DNA of 64,000 bases. Source: Escherichia coli (GTDB lineage Bacteria; Pseudomonadota; Gammaproteobacteria; Enterobacterales; Enterobacteriaceae). The translations under genes were made by a program, and so were the position numbers. Numbering within the stretch: position 1 is the first letter of the stretch; the number at the start of each line of letters is the position of its first letter. The notes below the pieces were generated by a model that was given only the letters and a program-made list of their open reading frames with translations, was not told where the DNA came from and searched no databases. Positions 55,987-64,000 of this stretch are shown here, in pieces. The stretch lies in assembly GCF_002854065.1 (NCBI RefSeq), contig NZ_CP024147.1. One strand, 5' to 3'.

Positions 55987-57192
55987 TTGAGCAAGACACC
56001 ACTCACAGCAAAGGCCATCGCAGCCGCGCAGCCAAAAGACAAGCCCTATAAACTCACCGATTCACTGACGCCAGGACTGTTTTTGCTGGTGCATCCCAAC
56101 GGCAGCAAATACTGGCGATTCAGGTATTGGTTGAATAAACGAGAGTTTTTGCAGGCCATTGGTGTTTACCCGCTAATCACACTCAAAGAAGCACGCAGAC
56201 GCGCCACAGAGAGCCGATCTCTGATTGCTAATGGAATTAATCCAGTGGAAGAAGCACGCAAGGAAAAAGCCATTGATGCGCTCAACATGGCGGCAGGTTT
56301 TAAGACGGTAGCGGAGGACTGGCTGGCTACCAGGGTCAGCGGGTGGTCAGAGTCCTACACGAAACAGGTTAGATCGGCACTGGAAAAAGATGTTTACCCC
56401 GTGCTGGGGAAGCGGTCAATTGTCGATATAACGGCCCGTGACGTGCTGGAATTGCTTCAGAAGAAAGAGCGTACCGCACCGGAACAAGCCAGGAAGCTAC
56501 GCCAGCGTATCGGGGAGATCTTCAAATTTGCCGTTATCACCGAACTGGTGGCAAGAAATCCGGTTGCAGATCTGAACACAGCACTAAAAGCCCGCCGTCC
56601 GGGCCACAACGCATGGCTGCAAATTAACGAAATTCAGGCGTTCTATGAAGCACTTGAGAGAGCCGGGAGCGTCCAGATTCAGACGGCAATACGTTTGCTC
56701 ATATTGAGCGCTCTAAGGACGGTGGAACTGCGTAAAATGCGCTGGGAATGGGTTAACCTGGAAGACGCGATCATCACCCTACCCGCTGAAGTCATGAAGG
56801 CCCGTCGCCCGCATGTGGTCCCGCTATCACGGCAGGCGGTAGAGCTATTGCAGGACCAGTTTACTCGCACCGGATACAGCGCTTTCGTCTTCCCTGGTCG
56901 ATTCATGGATAAGCCCTTGTCTGCCAGCGCGATACTGAAAGCCCTGGAGCGTATCGGATACAAGTCGATAGCCACAGCACACGGCTGGCGTACAACGTTC
57001 AGCACGACGCTTAACGAGTCCGGCAGGTACTCACCAGACTGGATTGAAATCCAATTGGCCCACGTCCCGAAGGGTGTACGCGGTGTATATAACCAGGCGG
57101 CCTATCTCAAACAGCGCCGTCAAATGCTTCAGGACTACGCCGACGCCATTGATTCAATACTGGCTGGTGAAGGTAATCCGCTGGAACCGTGA
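55987..57192 (+). CDS. intZ: P4-type tyrosine integrase (IntZ-like, CPZ-55-type prophage)
   Basis: 401 aa, apparent TTG start; catalytic R (LRTVELRKMRWEWV), HxxR (HGWRTTFST) and Tyr (GVYNQAAY) regions. Confidence 0.85.
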   Translation: MSKTPLTAKAIAAAQPKDKPYKLTDSLTPGLFLLVHPNGSKYWRFRYWLNKREFLQAIGVYPLITLKEARRRATESRSLIANGINPVEEARKEKAIDALNMAAGFKTVAEDWLATRVSGWSESYTKQVRSALEKDVYPVLGKRSIVDITARDVLELLQKKERTAPEQARKLRQRIGEIFKFAVITELVARNPVADLNTALKARRPGHNAWLQINEIQAFYEALERAGSVQIQTAIRLLILSALRTVELRKMRWEWVNLEDAIITLPAEVMKARRPHVVPLSRQAVELLQDQFTRTGYSAFVFPGRFMDKPLSASAILKALERIGYKSIATAHGWRTTFSTTLNESGRYSPDWIEIQLAHVPKGVRGVYNQAAYLKQRRQMLQDYADAIDSILAGEGNPLEP

Positions 57193-57198
57193 ACTATA

Positions 57199-57224
57199 AG
57201 GCCGGATTCGTCCGGCTTTTCTTT
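57199..57224 (+). terminator. Terminator after integrase
   Basis: GGCCGGA-TTCG-TCCGGC hairpin followed by TTTTCTTT. Confidence 0.7.
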
Positions 57225-57231
57225 CGCTAAT

Positions 57232-57259
57232 TATTCCACTATTCCAATTAAGTGGAATA
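57232..57259. promoter_or_regulatory. Inverted repeat (candidate operator) between int and the 255-aa gene
   Basis: TATTCCACT-ATTCCAATTA-AGTGGAATA, perfect 9-bp arms. Confidence 0.4.
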
Positions 57260-57418
57260 AATTATTCAATATCAAAAACTTACATCAATATTGCAACAAT
57301 AAAAACGGTGGCTTATGATCAGATCATGATTTTCGGTATGTGAACAGCAAAAACAAGAAGCCCGGAAAGGCGGCAACCAATCCGGGCGATATGGGAAAAG
57401 AGATTAGGAGGTTTCCCC

Positions 57419-58186
57419 ATGCGTAATAGTTTAGCAGTTCGCTTTAGCTTGCAGCAAGGCGAAGAATTATCACAGGAATATCAATTCATCAAATACGAAG
57501 AAGCGCCGGAACAGGTGCAAATAGCTTTTGATGATCAGCACTACGGCAACACTATCCGCTACGACGGTAAAAAATGGTTTCTCAATCCGGTAACAAATGC
57601 CATTCACGTATGTCAAATCATTACGCCAGTAAATAACAGCGCGGATAACGATTCGGCTATTGACGCTGAACTGGTGACAGAACCACTACCGCCACCGCCG
57701 CCAGTACAAGAAAGCGATGTAAAACCCGACGCCATCGATCTGACAGCAGAAGCCAGAGAGCGCAAACAACCGAAGCCGGAACAACCGCAAGCCAAGGATA
57801 ACAAACAGTGGCACGGTAACACGGCGTATCTGAATACGTTTGCTTGTCATCTTCATGAAGTGCTACCACAGGCCATCTATAGCACATGGTGCGACAAACA
57901 AACGGCGGCACACTTCCACCTGCTTTACGCGCTTTGCTACCTGGCAAGCTACGAAAACAAAGATGAAGGTATCGAGCTTGGCGAGGTGTTATATGGTGCT
58001 GAAAAGATCACAAAGGGCGGCGTAGTACCTGGTTTCCATATGGCCCGATCAACGTTCGATATCAAGATTAACGAGCTTGAACAGTGGGGATTAATCAAGG
58101 TAACACGAGGTAAGAAACGTAAGGACGGGCAAGGCAACTTGCCGAACAGTATCAAACTGAACTTTAAGCCGTACAGTTTAAAATAA
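57419..58186 (+). CDS. Prophage hypothetical protein with Pro-rich linker and possible C-terminal winged-helix DNA-binding domain
   Basis: 255 aa; AGGAGG SD 8 nt upstream; N-terminal domain, LPPPPPVQ...PKPEQPQ linker, C-terminal STFDIKINELEQWGLIKVTRGKKRK. Confidence 0.6.
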   Translation: MRNSLAVRFSLQQGEELSQEYQFIKYEEAPEQVQIAFDDQHYGNTIRYDGKKWFLNPVTNAIHVCQIITPVNNSADNDSAIDAELVTEPLPPPPPVQESDVKPDAIDLTAEARERKQPKPEQPQAKDNKQWHGNTAYLNTFACHLHEVLPQAIYSTWCDKQTAAHFHLLYALCYLASYENKDEGIELGEVLYGAEKITKGGVVPGFHMARSTFDIKINELEQWGLIKVTRGKKRKDGQGNLPNSIKLNFKPYSLK

Positions 58187-58194
58187 TCACACTA

Positions 58195-58220
58195 GGCGGG
58201 CAATGTTCCCGCCTTTTCTT
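58195..58220 (+). terminator. Terminator after the 255-aa gene
   Basis: GGCGGG-CAATGTT-CCCGCC followed by TTTTCTTT. Confidence 0.7.
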
Positions 58221-58243
58221 TGCCTCAATCCTATAAAATTCAC

Positions 58244-58282
58244 ATCCCGAAAATCGGTATCTGGGTATCCCGAAAATCGGTA
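58244..58282. repeat. Two tandem 16-bp direct repeats, each internally palindromic
   Basis: ATCCCGAAAATCGGTA at 58244-58259 and 58267-58282 (core CCGA-AAA-TCGG), 23-bp spacing. Confidence 0.7.
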
Positions 58283-58289
58283 AGTAATA

Positions 58290-59400
58290 ATAAGTATTAT
58301 CCTTAAAGGTAAAAACCATATAAGTAAGATCTATCTCTTCAAGAATGTATATATTCACTACGTTCATATATACATGAGAAGTTTCCCTTTCATGCAGTCA
58401 AAACTACATTCATCAGCATCGCTTTCTGCGCTCTCCTTCCCAGCAAGCTGGAAAGGCCCATTCACTCACGCACAACCTGCAAACCAGACCAACATACCAT
58501 CATGGCGATTCGTTCATGGGTAGCGCGGGTATATCTCAAAGGGTGATTTCTTCTTGGTGGACCTTCGGAAGACTTCGAGCAATCGCCAGCTCAAAAGACG
58601 GTCTGGCAGTGATGGTTATCATCGACAGCATTGAGCGCTACCGCGCCAACTTACAGCAGCAGGATAACTACCGAAGGAAAACCCACGCCGAAAGGGATTG
58701 ACTCACTGCAAAGCCAATGGGTTTTATCAGCGTATACAGACCAGACAGGAAACAGCAGCAAAGCAGCGTATAGCCAGGTGCAGACAGTACCATCACACAA
58801 CGCACAGCAGGCTGAGGTGAACACTCAAACAGGTTTATCCCCGCAGCCGACCAACGCAAACCATCCTGACCGTGCCAAATTCGAACGGAATGGTGCCTGT
58901 AACGCGATGAACACATATAACCGCTTACTTGCTTACCTGAAAACTTCACGTCGCCACAGAGCGATTTAGACGCATTATAATTGATGCGATTTCATTAAAT
59001 TTTCACCAGACACCGGAACAACGCCGATTAATCCAGGAATGGATTCATCGACATGCGCCGCTTTCCCCGCAGAACAGTCTCGCCTGAATAGTCTCACCAA
59101 CCAGATTTCAGATTGTCCAATCAGGCACGTCTCATTAAACGACAGAATGCGGCCTACAACGCCATCGCTGCCGATCTCGTTTGAGCAAGGTGCTGAGACT
59201 GAATGACGGACGCCCACTCCTCAGAGCTGAGGAATCGCCACACAGAACGCTGAGATCTGATATTACCGCCGCACCATTCCACGCCAGACGAATCAATCTA
59301 ATCACACCTGAGCAAATGCATTGCCAAAAATTAAGGCCGTCAGAATGCGTTATATTGCGTTTAAACGGCATCTAATTTTAATTAGTTTTGATGTGGTGAT
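58290..59400. other. ORF-poor prophage segment with only short overlapping ORFs; possible gene remnants or noncoding RNA
   Basis: No ORF over 112 aa on either strand across about 1.1 kb; the largest is S/T/Q-rich and of low complexity; contains an AT-rich 10-bp inverted repeat ATGTATATAT/ATATATACAT (58345-58375). Confidence 0.4.
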
Positions 59401-59668
59401 TGCAGGCAAAAAAAATCCCGCCGGAGAGAGCGGGGAAGTGAAATCAATCGTTGTAGTTATAGATCACATTTTGAGTAAGGGTTACCAGCCCTTGAGTAAT
59501 ATTATCCCTGTATTACGTGAGATGCGCAATTATTTTTTGCTAATTAAAAGTTTTGTAAACATTACAGAATATCCCCTTTCCCTATATGGTAAAAGATGTG
59601 AAACAGGGACATGAGGAATATAATATTAAGTATCAACAGTAATGTTGGTCTTTAATTTCATTCAGGGC

Positions 59669-59710
59669 GCGGTGAGGGTTTTCCCATATTTTTCCTCACC
59701 GCTACTTTTT
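59669..59710 (+). promoter_or_regulatory. Hairpin plus T-run directly upstream of the alpA-like gene ribosome-binding site
   Basis: GCGGTGAGG-16 nt loop-CCTCACCGC followed by TACTTTTT and then GAGGTGAGAACATG. Confidence 0.45.
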
Positions 59711-59721
59711 GAGGTGAGAAC

Positions 59722-59913
59722 ATGAATGATAGCGAATTAATGACGGTGAGCGAGGTAGCCGCTTTATTCGGCGTTACCCGACGCACTATATTCCGCTGGC
59801 TGAACAAGATTAAAGGTTGGCCCGTTCCGGTTACTCCGGTCGGTGCACGAATTAAGTTTATCCGATCTGAGATTTTGGAATTCTATAAAAACAAAGGCGC
59901 TCGCCACCAATGA
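59722..59913 (+). CDS. AlpA/Xis-family small HTH DNA-binding protein (prophage regulator or excisionase-like)
   Basis: 63 aa, LMTVSEVAALFGVTRRTIFRWL HTH; SD GAGGTGAG. Confidence 0.7.
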   Translation: MNDSELMTVSEVAALFGVTRRTIFRWLNKIKGWPVPVTPVGARIKFIRSEILEFYKNKGARHQ

Positions 59914-59989
59914 AAACAGCTACTGAGATTATCAAATAACCTATTGATTTAATAAGCTAGCTACCGCAATTTCTGAAGGAATAGGCAGC

Positions 59990-60316
59990 ATGAAAATCAA
60001 AGCAAACACAATTAAAGAAATAACATCAATCAAAGTAAAAGGAGCAGATGCCATGCATTCATTAGACAGTTATTTTCAGCGCACGACAGCCCCTAAATCA
60101 GCCGCCCAGGAACGCCGTGAGGAATTCCAGGAAAAAGTGATGCGTTCTGCTGATTATATTGCGGACAAGTTCGTGGAAACGGTTCGGCCACTTGTTGATG
60201 AAGTAGCTGATAAACTTCAGTCTGAAATGCCGGAAGACATGGAAGGCACTGCAAAGGCGCGACTCCTTTTTGAATTAAGTCGTCGTTTCGGCGTGTCAAT
60301 AAGCACTTTTAAATAA
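59990..60316 (+). CDS. Hypothetical prophage protein
   Basis: 108-aa ORF, AAGGA SD, co-directional tight spacing with neighbours. Confidence 0.5.
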   Translation: MKIKANTIKEITSIKVKGADAMHSLDSYFQRTTAPKSAAQERREEFQEKVMRSADYIADKFVETVRPLVDEVADKLQSEMPEDMEGTAKARLLFELSRRFGVSISTFK

Positions 60317-61859: not shown

Positions 61860-64000
61860 ATGAGTGGAAATCTCGGGACCATATACTACGAGGTCGATGC
61901 CCGCACTGGGAAACTTCTTATCGCGCAACAGCAGGCGGAAGAGGCGTTCGATCGCATTGAACGAGGAGCGCGGAAGGCTGATAGCGGCGTCAAAAAGTTA
62001 AATACGCAGATGACTAAAACATCAGCCGCAGTCAAAACCAACCTTTCCCCGGCAATCCGTAACGCATCATACCAGATCGCAGACCTTGCCACTCAATTGC
62101 AGATGGGCGGTAATGCGCTTCAGGCGTTCGCTGTGCAGGGTGCGCAGTTATTAGCTGGCTTTGGCACGATGGGCGCGGTAGCTGGCGCGGTGCTGGCTAT
62201 CGCTGGCGCTATGGGTGGAAGCCTGGCACAAGGCGCTGATAGTGCAGCCGGATCGGTTGAGTATCTGGACAAGGCGATCACCAAACTGAACGAGGTCATA
62301 GCTGTAAATGAACAGGGCGTGACGGTGATGAGTGATAGTTACGCCAGACTTTCTAAGGTTAACGCTGAAGTAGCGAAACAGATGCGGAACATGGCTGAAA
62401 TTCAGGCAATTGCAGCACTGCGTGACCTGAAAGAACAGGCAAGCCAGGCACAGGGGGAAATGTCGTCATTCTGGCGCAGCTTGCAGGGTGGTAAAGCTGA
62501 CGCAGCAGCAGCAGCACAGGCACTTGATGATCTTGGAATCACAACCAACGACTACAAAGAGGCGATAGCCATACTGAACGCCAATCAGCCGGATACACAG
62601 GCGCAAATGGCAACGCTAGCCAAATCCGTGATGTATGTTGGAGAGCAATATGATCTGACCAACCAGCAAGCATACGAATTTATACGCGCACTAAATAAGG
62701 CCGCGACAACGAAAACGCCGGAAGCCATGCAGGAGCTATCTGGCTTCATGCAGGTTTTGCTTCAGGATACCGAAAACGGTAACGAGGCATTCCGTGAACT
62801 GGCTATCAAATTCGTCGATGCACAAACCAAAGGCGCAATGTTGGAGGACCAACTAAACCGACTGAAAGGCGCTATTAGTGACGCAGCCACAGAAGCCAGA
62901 AACGCAAACTTTACCACTATGCTCAACACCGTCGCCGCACGCCTGGCAACCATTGAGCAAGGTTGGGAGGCAGGCGTTAGGATGCAGATGAAAGCCCAGG
63001 GCTACACTGAAGAGCAGATCGATGAATATGTGAACATGGAAACGGCGTACCGTGATGCAAAAGCCGCTTTGGACGAGAAGAACAAGGCCGACCGTGAAGC
63101 TATTGCGCTATCCAAACGCCAGGCCGCAGAAGCAGCCCGCAAGGCAAAACAGGAAGAAGCTGAAGCACAACGCAAGGCCAAACAGTTAGCCGCGCAGAAG
63201 GAGCAGGCAGGACGCTTTACGCAGCAAGTAATGACGGAATACCTGACGACCGTAGATCCGGCAACAGGCAAGGCGTTTAACCCTGCCGCACAAGTAGAAA
63301 TGCAGGAGCAGCAGAAGAAAGCGGCGCTGGATAAATACAGACAGTTGGGCGTCCTGGATGAACAGCAGTACCAGAACACGCTAACCGCCATCCAGAAAAC
63401 CGCGTCAATGCGCCGCCAGCAAATCATCAAAGACGAGGCCGACACGTTATTCAACAATCAGCAACAGTTGATCGGCACATTTGGCGATTTCTTCGGTGAA
63501 CTGTCTGGAGTCATAGCAGACGGTGCAGGTGAGCAAAACGCGGCATATCAAGCGCTATTTGCTGTGCAGAAGGGTTTTGTATTGGCATCAGCAGCTTTAA
63601 GCCTTCAGAAAGCGCTTGCTGAGGCAAACGCCTTGCCTTTCCCGGCTAATCTTCCGGCCTATGCGCAAGCTATGTCAGCAGGTACGCAGATCATTTCAGC
63701 TATTCGTGGAATAGCTTTCGGTGGCGGACGCTACAACGGCGGCGCGGTTGGTGCTGGCAACCTGTACCGCGTGGGTGAACACGGTAAGCCTGAGATATTC
63801 AAGGCGAACAATGGCAGCCAGTACATGATCCCAGGTGATAACGGTCGCGTGATAAGTAATCGTGACATTGGCGGCGGTGGCGGCGTAACAATCAACAGCC
63901 CGATCACCATTAACACTACGAATGGCTTCAGTGATGAAGACTCAAGGCGTCTTGAGGAAGCGATGAAGCGCGTAGCTATGGGCGTTTGCAGGCAGGAGTC
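61860..64000 (+). CDS. Phage tail tape measure protein, 5' part; ORF runs off window end
   Basis: Open frame from ATG 61860 to the window end (over 700 codons; absent from the ORF track because no stop); hydrophobic Gly/Ala-rich segment, long A/Q/K-rich coiled coils, GNLYRVGEHGKPEIF motif resembling lambda gpH. Confidence 0.65.
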   Translation, partial: MSGNLGTIYYEVDARTGKLLIAQQQAEEAFDRIERGARKADSGVKKLNTQMTKTSAAVKTNLSPAIRNASYQIADLATQLQMGGNALQAFAVQGAQLLAGFGTMGAVAGAVLAIAGAMGGSLAQGADSAAGSVEYLDKAITKLNEVIAVNEQGVTVMSDSYARLSKVNAEVAKQMRNMAEIQAIAALRDLKEQASQAQGEMSSFWRSLQGGKADAAAAAQALDDLGITTNDYKEAIAILNANQPDTQAQMATLAKSVMYVGEQYDLTNQQAYEFIRALNKAATTKTPEAMQELSGFMQVLLQDTENGNEAFRELAIKFVDAQTKGAMLEDQLNRLKGAISDAATEARNANFTTMLNTVAARLATIEQGWEAGVRMQMKAQGYTEEQIDEYVNMETAYRDAKAALDEKNKADREAIALSKRQAAEAARKAKQEEAEAQRKAKQLAAQKEQAGRFTQQVMTEYLTTVDPATGKAFNPAAQVEMQEQQKKAALDKYRQLGVLDEQQYQNTLTAIQKTASMRRQQIIKDEADTLFNNQQQLIGTFGDFFGELSGVIADGAGEQNAAYQALFAVQKGFVLASAALSLQKALAEANALPFPANLPAYAQAMSAGTQIISAIRGIAFGGGRYNGGAVGAGNLYRVGEHGKPEIFKANNGSQYMIPGDNGRVISNRDIGGGGGVTINSPITINTTNGFSDEDSRRLEEAMKRVAMGVCRQE

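What the first reader, a model, noticed from the sequence alone, without database searches (positions are those of the whole stretch)
58244..58282. Tandem palindromic 16-bp repeats downstream of the 255-aa gene
ATCCCGAAAATCGGTA occurs twice with 23-bp periodicity, and each copy contains the palindrome CCGA-AAA-TCGG. Paired palindromic sites at about two helical turns are typical of dimeric repressor operators or iteron-like origin elements. They sit at the head of the ORF-poor region.
Basis: seen in the sequence. Interest (0 to 1): 0.4.

Follow-up and report, generated by a model that had tools for sequence, protein, structure and literature searches.

The report
Iteron-like repeats beside YffL-type gene
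The two 16-bp repeats are real binding sites for the neighbouring YffL-like winged-helix protein of a CPZ-55-type E. coli island and most likely form a small iteron-type replication origin, a familiar kind of element that has not been annotated here.

Summary
ATCCCGAAAATCGGTA occurs exactly twice, 23 bp apart (58244-58259 and 58267-58282). It is the only close tandem repeat of 12 bases or more in the window.

The window carries a CPZ-55-family island at the eutB/intZ site, and the 255-aa gene is a yffL homologue. In 24 related loci an array sits at the same place, about 24 bp after a conserved terminator, with a 23-24 bp period and 2-7 units. Its sequence falls into four types, each tied to one YffL type.

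Between types A and B the differences cluster in three places: the array, a single inverted copy just downstream of the yffL promoter's -10 hexamer, and the codons of the predicted recognition helix. Both palindrome arms changed together (CCGA..TCGG to GTAA..TTAC).

YffL relatives match phage replication-initiator families, although the window's own protein does not. The most AT-rich 80 bp of the window directly follows the array.

My best reading is an iteron-type origin plus an autoregulatory operator (confidence about 0.6). A transcriptional operator array is the main rival (about 0.25). Replication has not been tested, and the island encodes no recognisable helicase or primase. I rate it a new member of a known kind, of moderate interest.

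The parts
57291..57319 (+). Sigma-70-like promoter of the yffL-like gene (TTGCAA, 17 nt, TATGAT)
   Evidence: Consensus scan. The site is conserved in the type B loci, where the -10 hexamer is TATAAT. This is a consensus match only and no transcription start has been mapped.
57328..57344 (-). Single inverted copy of the first repeat unit with its flank (TTCACATACCGAAAATC), lying 9-25 bp downstream of the -10 hexamer; a putative autoregulatory operator
   Evidence: I1: 25-nt arms, 84% complementary; pattern found exactly twice, 0.06 expected. It changes with island type: ATGATTTTCGGTATGTGAA in type A against ATCGTAAGTTTTACTATGTGAA in type B. Type C loci L004, L024 and L025 carry a direct copy of their own unit at this position.
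57419..58186 (+). 255-aa yffL homologue with a C-terminal winged helix-turn-helix (about residues 134-250), the candidate site-binding protein and initiator
58194..58224 (+). Intrinsic terminator of the yffL-like gene (GGCGGGCAATGTTCCCGCC followed by TTTTCTTTG)
   Evidence: The 28-nt string is identical in all 25 loci of types A, B, B' and C.
58244..58259 (+). Repeat unit 1 (ATCCCGAAAATCGGTA; core CCGA-AAA-TCGG)
58267..58282 (+). Repeat unit 2, identical to unit 1 and 23 bp downstream
   Evidence: A third identical unit is present in L003 and L011, and L014 has three units, two of them a 1-nt variant.
58281..58362 (.). AT-rich stretch abutting the last unit, a candidate DNA-unwinding region
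   Evidence: The 80 bp starting at 58281 is 22.5% GC. Only 0.02% of all 80-bp windows in the 64 kb are as low. It is largely conserved in types A and B'.
58345..58375 (.). Inverted repeat ATGTATATAT, 11 nt, ATATATACAT at the distal edge of the AT-rich stretch
   Evidence: I21: 10-nt arms, 100% complementary. The same sequence is present in type B loci. Its function is unknown.

Best explanation
The two repeats are the iteron array of a small replication origin belonging to a CPZ-55-family integrative island, a satellite-like element about 10 kb long inserted between eutB and eutA.

The module reads in this order: yffL promoter carrying one inverted iteron copy, the yffL-like gene, a terminator, the 23-bp-phased iterons, an AT-rich stretch and an inverted repeat.

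Inferred mechanism:
- The C-terminal winged helix of the YffL-like protein recognises the short dyad core (CCGA-AAA-TCGG) of each unit, probably as a dimer.
- Units about 2.2 helical turns apart place the bound proteins on roughly one face of the DNA.
- The resulting nucleoprotein complex helps open the adjacent 22.5%-GC stretch.
- The island encodes no recognisable helicase or primase, so the replisome would have to come from the host or from a helper phage, as for the PLE RepA/iteron system.
- The same protein binding the inverted copy just downstream of its promoter's -10 hexamer would repress its own synthesis.

What is shown: the sites, their phasing, their position, their type-specific co-variation with the protein's helix-turn-helix and wing, the AT-rich neighbour, and the homology of family members to phage initiators.

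What is inferred: binding itself, dimer recognition, origin firing and autorepression.
For: 1. Position and phase are conserved while the sequence is swapped. In 24 related loci an array starts 24-26 bp after an identical terminator, with a 23-24 bp period and 2-7 units.

2. Four repeat types match four YffL types with no discordance.
- Type A: CCGAAAATCGG.
- Types B and B': GTAAAAATTAC.
- Type C (K-12): GTCAAAAGTTGCCG.

3. Between types A and B the DNA differences are concentrated in three places, while stretches between and beyond them are 39-40/40 identical.
- The promoter-proximal site, 57314-57353.
- The codons at 58034-58073.
- The array, 58236-58310.
The amino-acid differences cluster at residues 195-199, at 207-222 (the predicted recognition helix) and at S244R in the wing.

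4. Both palindrome arms changed together (CCGA/TCGG to GTAA/TTAC), and the promoter-proximal copy changed in the same way.

5. Family members match phage replication initiators through the winged-helix domain.
- P0021: phrog_270 at 2e-8, O-like phrog_678 at 2e-7 and phrog_391 at 5e-7, DnaD-like loader phrog_186 at 5.5e-6, and Pfam HTH_36 above its cut-off.
- K-12-type YffL: phrog_270 at 1.6e-4 to 5e-4.

6. The most AT-rich 80 bp of the whole window abuts the last unit.

7. No sigma-70-like promoter overlaps the array.

8. In the distant relative L005 the YffL-like gene lies downstream of the alpA-like gene, where PICIs carry their rep gene (PMC6092414).

9. Precedents exist. PICI origins are iterons with an AT-rich region immediately 3' of rep (PMC6092414). 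PLE uses a helicase-less winged-helix RepA with iterons in a non-coding region (PMC7145576).
Against: - No replication data exist for any CPZ-55-type island. K-12 CPZ-55 excises in fewer than 1 in 100,000 cells and showed no extrachromosomal circular DNA activity in mobilome sequencing.
- The island has no recognisable helicase, primase or loader.
- There is no DnaA box (up to 1 mismatch) and no IHF consensus near the array.
- The window has only two units.
- The window's own protein gives no significant Pfam or PHROG hit, so the link to initiators is transitive through relatives with 26-30% identity.
- Dyad cores together with a promoter-proximal copy also fit a repressor.
- K-12 itself lacks the promoter-proximal copy.
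- PICI origins have two iteron sets flanking the AT-rich region, whereas only one set is seen here.
Confidence: 0.6

Rival explanations
1. The repeats are a transcriptional operator array. The YffL-like protein would be the island's regulator (a repressor or activator, playing the role of Stl/Rpr in PICIs or of the P2 C repressor, which binds direct repeats 22 bp apart). It would bind cooperatively to the phased sites to control rightward transcription into the alpA-like operon, and to the single site at its own promoter for autoregulation.
For: - Short dyad-symmetric cores are typical of dimeric regulators.
- A cognate copy lies just downstream of the -10 hexamer of the gene's own promoter-like site.
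- The array lies between the int/yffL genes and the rightward genes that begin with an alpA-like HTH_17 gene at 59722-59913.
- A 23-24 bp centre-to-centre spacing also occurs in lambdoid and P2-type operators (from my own knowledge, not tested here).
- Winged helices of CRP, Fur and PadR type are near the top of both structure searches.
Against: - No sigma-70-like promoter overlaps or adjoins the array on either strand.
- The number of units varies from 2 to 7 between near-identical islands, which would shift any fixed promoter geometry by up to about 115 bp.
- The array follows a terminator and precedes the most AT-rich spot of the window.
- Sequence-profile matches of family members go to replication initiators, and no transcription-regulator family appears among them.
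- In L005 the homologue sits inside the alpA-led gene string rather than upstream of it.
Confidence: 0.25
2. The repeats are another kind of protein-DNA assembly site bound by the YffL-like protein: a centromere-like partition site, a packaging (pac) recognition site, or a decoy or handcuffing site used to interfere with a helper phage.
For: - Tandem phased sites next to the gene of their binding protein also describe parC/ParR-type centromeres (from my own knowledge).
- K-12 CPZ-55 carries a small-terminase-like gene: YffO matches Sf6_terminase at E 2.6e-9.
- The type A island carries a tape-measure-domain gene (TMP_3, E 5e-53). Both point to dealings with a helper phage.
Against: - The island has no partition ATPase.
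- The sites co-vary with YffL and not with a terminase. Islands L008, L009 and L010 share the same YffL and array but have different downstream genes.
- No similarity to any phage DNA in the phage collection.
- The homology of family members points to initiators.
Confidence: 0.1
3. The repeat is a recent slippage duplication without function.
For: The two units are identical and the unit number varies between strains.
Against: - Arrays occur at the same position and phase in every island type, with different sequences.
- A matching inverted copy lies 900 bp away and changes in parallel.
- Palindrome arms changed on both sides together.
Confidence: 0.03

Closest known systems
Phage lambda ori with O protein (and O-like or DnaD-like phage initiators: PHROGs 270, 391, 678, 186)
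   Same: - Several phased direct repeats, each with internal dyad symmetry, followed by an AT-rich stretch and then an inverted repeat (lambda architecture from my own knowledge).
- A winged-helix origin-binding domain. YffL-family members match the N-terminal, origin-binding part of these profiles.
- No DnaA box.
   Different: - The winged helix is at the C-terminus rather than the N-terminus.
- There is no domain resembling the part of O that recruits the helicase loader, and no P-like loader gene.
- The array lies downstream of the gene, not inside it.
- The window has two units rather than four.
- The window protein itself is too diverged to hit these families.
PICI/SaPI replication module (pri-rep followed by ori)
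   Same: An integrase-bearing, unidirectionally transcribed island with an alpA-like gene. The putative origin lies immediately 3' of the putative initiator gene and consists of iterons next to an AT-rich region. Iteron and initiator specificity differs between islands (PMC6092414).
   Different: - PICI Rep proteins carry helicase or primase functions, and YffL has neither.
- PICI origins have two iteron sets flanking the AT-rich region, and only one set is seen here.
- The yffL gene sits between int and alpA rather than downstream of alpA, except in L005.
Vibrio cholerae PLE RepA (RepA_N) with iterons in a non-coding region
   Different: No sequence similarity to RepA_N. The domain order differs, the host is different, and helper dependence here is only a conjecture.
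Iteron plasmids (pSC101 RepA, F RepE, R6K pi, pPS10 RepA)
   Same: Direct repeats of about 22-23 bp, an adjacent AT-rich region, and an inverted partial iteron in the rep promoter used for autorepression (from my own knowledge). Here one inverted copy lies just downstream of the -10 hexamer.
   Different: - No Rep_3-type tandem winged-helix fold and no Pfam match.
- No DnaA box or IHF site.
- The iteron cores are dyad-symmetric.
- The element is integrative, not a plasmid.
Direct-repeat or tandem operators of temperate phages (P2 C repressor O1/O2; lambda OR1-3)
   Same: Repeated sites about two helical turns apart, bound by a small DNA-binding protein encoded nearby (from my own knowledge).
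   Different: Those operators overlap promoters and have a fixed number of sites. Here no promoter-like site overlaps the array, and the unit number varies from 2 to 7.

Membership tests
Iteron-type replication origin (phage, plasmid or satellite) | Several direct repeats of about 17-23 bp phased at whole helical turns | tested here: met
   Two exact units 23 bp apart in the window. Relatives have 3-7 units at 23-24 bp.
Iteron-type replication origin (phage, plasmid or satellite) | AT-rich unwinding region adjacent to the repeats | tested here: met
   The 80 bp at 58281 is 22.5% GC, within the lowest 0.02% of the window, and abuts unit 2. Actual unwinding was not tested.
Iteron-type replication origin (phage, plasmid or satellite) | Cognate initiator encoded next to the repeats and specific for them | tested here: inconclusive
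   Protein type and repeat type match in all 24 loci. Divergence is localised to the HTH and wing codons, the array and the operator. This supports specific binding, but binding itself and initiator activity are untested.
Iteron-type replication origin (phage, plasmid or satellite) | Initiator homologous to a known initiator family | tested here: inconclusive
Iteron-type replication origin (phage, plasmid or satellite) | Partial or inverted iteron in the initiator's promoter (autoregulation) | tested here: met
   The inverted copy at 57328-57344 lies 9-25 bp downstream of the -10 hexamer TATGAT at 57314-57319 and changes with island type. Autorepression was not tested.
Iteron-type replication origin (phage, plasmid or satellite) | DnaA boxes or IHF sites (present in many plasmid origins, not in lambda-type origins) | tested here: not met
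   No TTWTNCACA with up to 1 mismatch and no WATCAANNNNTTR within 420 bp after the terminator in the window.
Iteron-type replication origin (phage, plasmid or satellite) | Supports autonomous or helper-dependent replication | not testable with these tools
   This needs a plasmid-maintenance or copy-number assay. The literature gives only rare excision and no circular-DNA signal for K-12 CPZ-55.
PICI (phage-inducible chromosomal island) | int, alpA-type activator, pri-rep replication module with ori, unidirectional transcription, size about 10-15 kb | tested here: inconclusive
   The int gene, an HTH_17 alpA-like gene, unidirectional genes and a size of about 10 kb are present. No primase or helicase Rep was found. 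Induction by a helper phage was not tested.
Repressor operator array | Sites overlap or adjoin the regulated promoter | tested here: not met
   No promoter-like site overlaps or adjoins the tandem array. Only the separate single copy adjoins one. The scan covers the sigma-70 consensus only.
Repressor operator array | Dyad-symmetric sites for a dimeric HTH protein | tested here: met
   The cores are CCGA-AAA-TCGG (type A), GTAA-AAA-TTAC (type B) and CAA-AAG-TTG (type C). L014 has CCGAA-A-TTCGG. The half-site spacing of about 7 bp is short for classical HTH dimers (inference).
Repressor operator array | Fixed number and geometry of sites | tested here: not met
   Closely related islands carry 2-7 units.

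The most novel reading that the evidence does not exclude
CPZ-55-type islands, including the cryptic 'prophage' CPZ-55 of E. coli K-12, may be an unrecognised family of minimal phage satellites. Their replicon would be a helicase-less, O-like winged-helix initiator (YffL, until now a protein of unknown function) acting on an adjacent iteron origin. The family would have diversified into at least four initiator/iteron specificity groups through coupled changes in the recognition helix, the iterons and the autoregulatory operator. Replication would depend on a helper phage's or the host's replisome, as in PLE.
Probability: 0.35. Interest if true: 0.6.

Novelty: new member of a known kind. Interest (0 to 1): 0.42.

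Why it matters
If correct, an E. coli K-12 gene of unknown function (yffL) gets a testable role as a replication initiator, and CPZ-55-type islands get a defined origin. These islands were detected in 438 of 5,426 complete E. coli genomes.

The locus also offers a compact natural series for studying how DNA-binding specificity changes. Four protein and site types share near-identical flanks, and the changes are confined to the recognition helix, the wing, the tandem sites and the promoter-proximal site.

It would also add a second example, after PLE, of a satellite-like element whose initiator lacks helicase and primase. The underlying principle (iterons next to their initiator gene) is well established, so this is a matter of annotation and mechanistic detail rather than a new kind of system.

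Tried and rejected
- **Pfam and PHROGs on the window protein:** no hit. Matches to initiator families appeared only when relatives were scanned.
- **PDB sequence-profile search:** nothing significant.
- **Exhaustive profile search of 1.84 billion representatives:** only 7 hits, so the family is very small.
- **Other collection scans:** the peptide-pattern scan and the terminator-string scan of species-representative genomes, and the terminator-string scan of viral contigs, all found nothing. The metagenome scan with the terminator string yielded 15 useful loci.
- **No DNA similarity** in the phage collection. The plasmid collection gave only two partial hits (15-17% of the query), one being yffL/yffM on a Klebsiella plasmid.
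- **Phage tblastn:** one weak hit with P0021 and none with K-12 YffL.
- **Rfam on 57000-60000:** only sub-threshold chance-level hits.
- **Integrase arm sites or Xis-binding sites:** rejected, because the array is about 2.4 kb from the island end next to int.
- **Partition site:** rejected, because no ATPase is present.
- **DnaA box and IHF site search:** negative.
- **L005 (distant homologue):** the contig ends 79 bp after the gene, so its downstream region could not be examined.
- **Literature searches** for yffL, CPZ-55, the other CPZ-55 genes and the repeat sequences found no functional description.

Full report
**Observation**

The 16-mer ATCCCGAAAATCGGTA occurs exactly at 58244-58259 and 58267-58282 on the + strand, 23 bp start to start. 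Each copy contains CCGA-AAA-TCGG. No other copy with up to 3 mismatches exists in the 64-kb window. This is the only close-range direct repeat of 12 bases or more (within 60 bp) in the whole window. None of 200 first-order Markov randomisations produced a 16-mer tandem.

[quoted passage not shown] It directly follows a terminator-like hairpin at 58194-58214 with a T-run.

**Context**

The window carries an integrative island at the eutB/intZ site of E. coli, the site occupied by the cryptic prophage CPZ-55 in K-12.

A complete type A island, seen in strain MMC-J-0105, is about 10 kb long. Its contents in order are:
- a tyrosine integrase;
- the 255-aa gene;
- the repeats, followed by about 1.1 kb without annotated genes;
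- an alpA-like HTH_17 gene;
- four small genes;
- a 731-aa protein with a tape-measure domain (TMP_3, E 5e-53);
- two small genes;
- an HTH_3 protein.

No helicase, primase or capsid gene is recognisable. The 255-aa protein is a homologue of K-12 YffL, with about 29% identity over the C-terminal 124 residues and tblastn E 1.8e-9.

**Comparative evidence**

The 28-nt terminator string of the gene is identical in every relative, so I used it to collect loci. In all 24 related loci an array of direct repeats starts 24-26 bp after the terminator, with a 23-24 bp period.

| Type | Core of the unit | Units | Loci |
|---|---|---|---|
| A | CCGAAAATCGG | 2 | window, L001, L017, L019 |
| A | CCGAAAATCGG | 3 | L003, L011, L014 |
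| B | GTAAAAATTAC | 3 (one degenerate) | L008-L010, L015 |
| B' | GTAAAAATTAC | 3 to about 5 | L006, L007, L021 |
| C | GTCAAAAGTTGCCG | 3-7 | K-12 and ten others |

Each repeat type goes with one type of YffL protein, and there are no exceptions. The gene and the array are only about 60 bp apart, so linkage alone would produce that association. Three further points carry the argument.

1. Divergence is localised. Type A and type B loci differ in three confined places.
   - The array itself.
   - A 40-bp stretch just after the gene's promoter-like site.
   - The codons at 58034-58073.
   Stretches between and beyond these places are 39-40/40 identical. The amino-acid differences cluster at residues 195-199, 207-222 and 244. 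In the AlphaFold models these are helix 2, the turn plus recognition helix, and the wing of a winged helix-turn-helix.

2. Both arms of the palindrome changed together, from CCGA...TCGG to GTAA...TTAC. The A-rich centre stayed the same.

3. A third site exists and changes in parallel.
   - It is an inverted copy of the first unit with its flank (TTCACATACCGAAAATC) at 57328-57344 on the - strand.
   - It lies 9-25 bp downstream of the -10 hexamer of a promoter-like site (TTGCAA, 17 nt, TATGAT at 57291-57319).
   - It changes with island type in the same way as the array.
   - Three type C loci carry a copy of their own unit at this position, but K-12 itself does not.

I conclude that the repeats are real, type-specific binding sites of the YffL-like protein. 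This rests on sequence evidence, not on a binding assay.

**What the protein is**

The family is very small. An exhaustive profile search of 1.84 billion cluster representatives found only seven. The window protein has no Pfam or PHROG match. Its relatives do.

- The distant member P0021 matches several phage initiator families through the winged-helix domain:
  - phrog_270, replication initiation protein, at 2e-8;
  - phrog_1032, replication initiation protein, at 1.8e-7;
  - the O-like families phrog_678 at 2.1e-7 and phrog_391 at 4.8e-7;
  - the DnaD-like helicase-loader family phrog_186 at 5.5e-6;
  - Pfam HTH_36, above its cut-off.
- K-12-type YffL matches phrog_270 at 1.6e-4 to 5e-4 and phrog_186 at 5e-4 to 1e-3.
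- Type B proteins give the same families, but only at 0.06-0.09.

All these matches align the YffL winged helix with roughly positions 10-120 of the initiator profiles, i.e. their N-terminal part. In lambda O that part is the origin-binding domain (established knowledge).

**What lies next to the array**

The 80 bp starting at 58281 is 22.5% GC. Only 0.02% of all 80-bp windows in the 64 kb are as AT-rich. At its far edge is a perfect 10-bp inverted repeat at 58345-58375. No sigma-70-like promoter overlaps the array. No DnaA box or IHF consensus is present.

**Interpretation**

The best reading is an iteron-type origin with its initiator gene: promoter with an inverted iteron copy, yffL-like gene, terminator, phased iterons, AT-rich stretch and inverted repeat.

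This is the layout of iteron plasmids. With dyad-symmetric iterons and no DnaA box, it also resembles lambda ori with O protein. PICI origins likewise sit immediately 3' of rep and combine iterons with an AT-rich region (PMC6092414). A helicase-less winged-helix initiator acting on iterons in a satellite has a precedent in PLE RepA (PMC7145576). In the distant relative L005 the YffL-like gene sits downstream of the alpA-like gene, where PICIs carry rep.

I put this reading at about 0.6. The weak points are:
- there are no replication data;
- CPZ-55 excision is very rare and no circular-DNA signal was seen;
- the island has no helicase, primase or loader;
- the window has only two units;
- the homology of the window protein to initiators is transitive;
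- only one iteron set is present, rather than the two seen in PICIs.

**Rivals**

An operator array for a YffL-like regulator (about 0.25) fits the dyad cores, the promoter-proximal copy and the position ahead of the rightward genes. It fits poorly with the absence of a promoter at the array, the 2-7 variation in unit number, the AT-rich neighbour and the initiator-type homology.

Other assembly sites such as partition, packaging or decoy sites get about 0.1. They lack supporting genes, or would not explain the co-variation with YffL. Islands L008-L010 share the same YffL and array but have different downstream genes. A functionless slippage duplication is contradicted by the comparative data.

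**Novelty**

yffL is listed as a gene of unknown function. The repeats are unannotated in RefSeq, including in K-12. No paper in the searchable library mentions them. The kind of element is well known, so I rate this as a new member of a known kind with moderate interest.

Noticed in passing
window 58437-58600 (K-12: L002 4314-4505, upstream of yffM): A non-coding block of about 170 bp is nearly invariant across island types A, B, B' and C, although the flanking yffL genes are only about 30% identical at the protein level between types A and C. It has no Rfam match and no phage match. RNAalifold finds a fold but almost no covariation, because the block hardly varies. It could be a promoter or 5' leader of the rightward genes, a small RNA, a packaging site or part of the origin.
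   Followed up: partly
window 61860 to beyond 64000 (+); L027 15772-17970: A gene of about 700-730 aa with a clear tape-measure domain (TMP_3, E 5e-53) sits in a 10-kb island that has no other recognisable virion gene. That is unusual for an island with a satellite-like layout. In the window the ORF runs off the end.
   Followed up: partly
L002 5237-5653 (K-12 yffO): K-12 YffO matches the Sf6-type small terminase subunit family (E 2.6e-9). This suggests CPZ-55 is a satellite-like element that redirects packaging, rather than the remnant of a full prophage.
   Followed up: no
L001 18768-19465 and L026 17263-17960; window 63951 onward: In strains CUWW06 and 100416 an IS1 truncates the island, and all eut genes from eutA to eutS are missing, with maeB next. 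The window is otherwise near-identical to CUWW06 (5 differences in 18.7 kb) but departs from it at 63951, where CUWW06 reaches its stop codon and IS1 while the window's tape-measure ORF stays open to the end.
   Followed up: partly
window 58194-58221 and all loci L002-L025: The 28-nt terminator string after yffL is identical in every island type, and the hairpin after int (CCGGATTCGTCCGGC, window 57202-57216) is present in all 18 loci that extend that far upstream. The genes between them have diverged to about 30% protein identity. This looks like a fixed module boundary for recombination.
   Followed up: no
L014 (units 1 and 2 of its array): Two of the three type A units read CCGAAATTCGG. A single change lengthens the palindrome arms from 4 to 5 bp.
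   Followed up: no
L006/L007 3771-3998 and L021: Type B' islands carry an extra 75-aa gene, overlapping the end of yffL, between yffL and the conserved terminator. It has no family match.
   Followed up: no
window 58600-59700: The 'ORF-poor' region is a mosaic of segments 76-93% identical to non-coding or differently annotated segments of other island types. RefSeq calls one 89-aa hypothetical gene at 59345-59614, which has no family match.
   Followed up: partly
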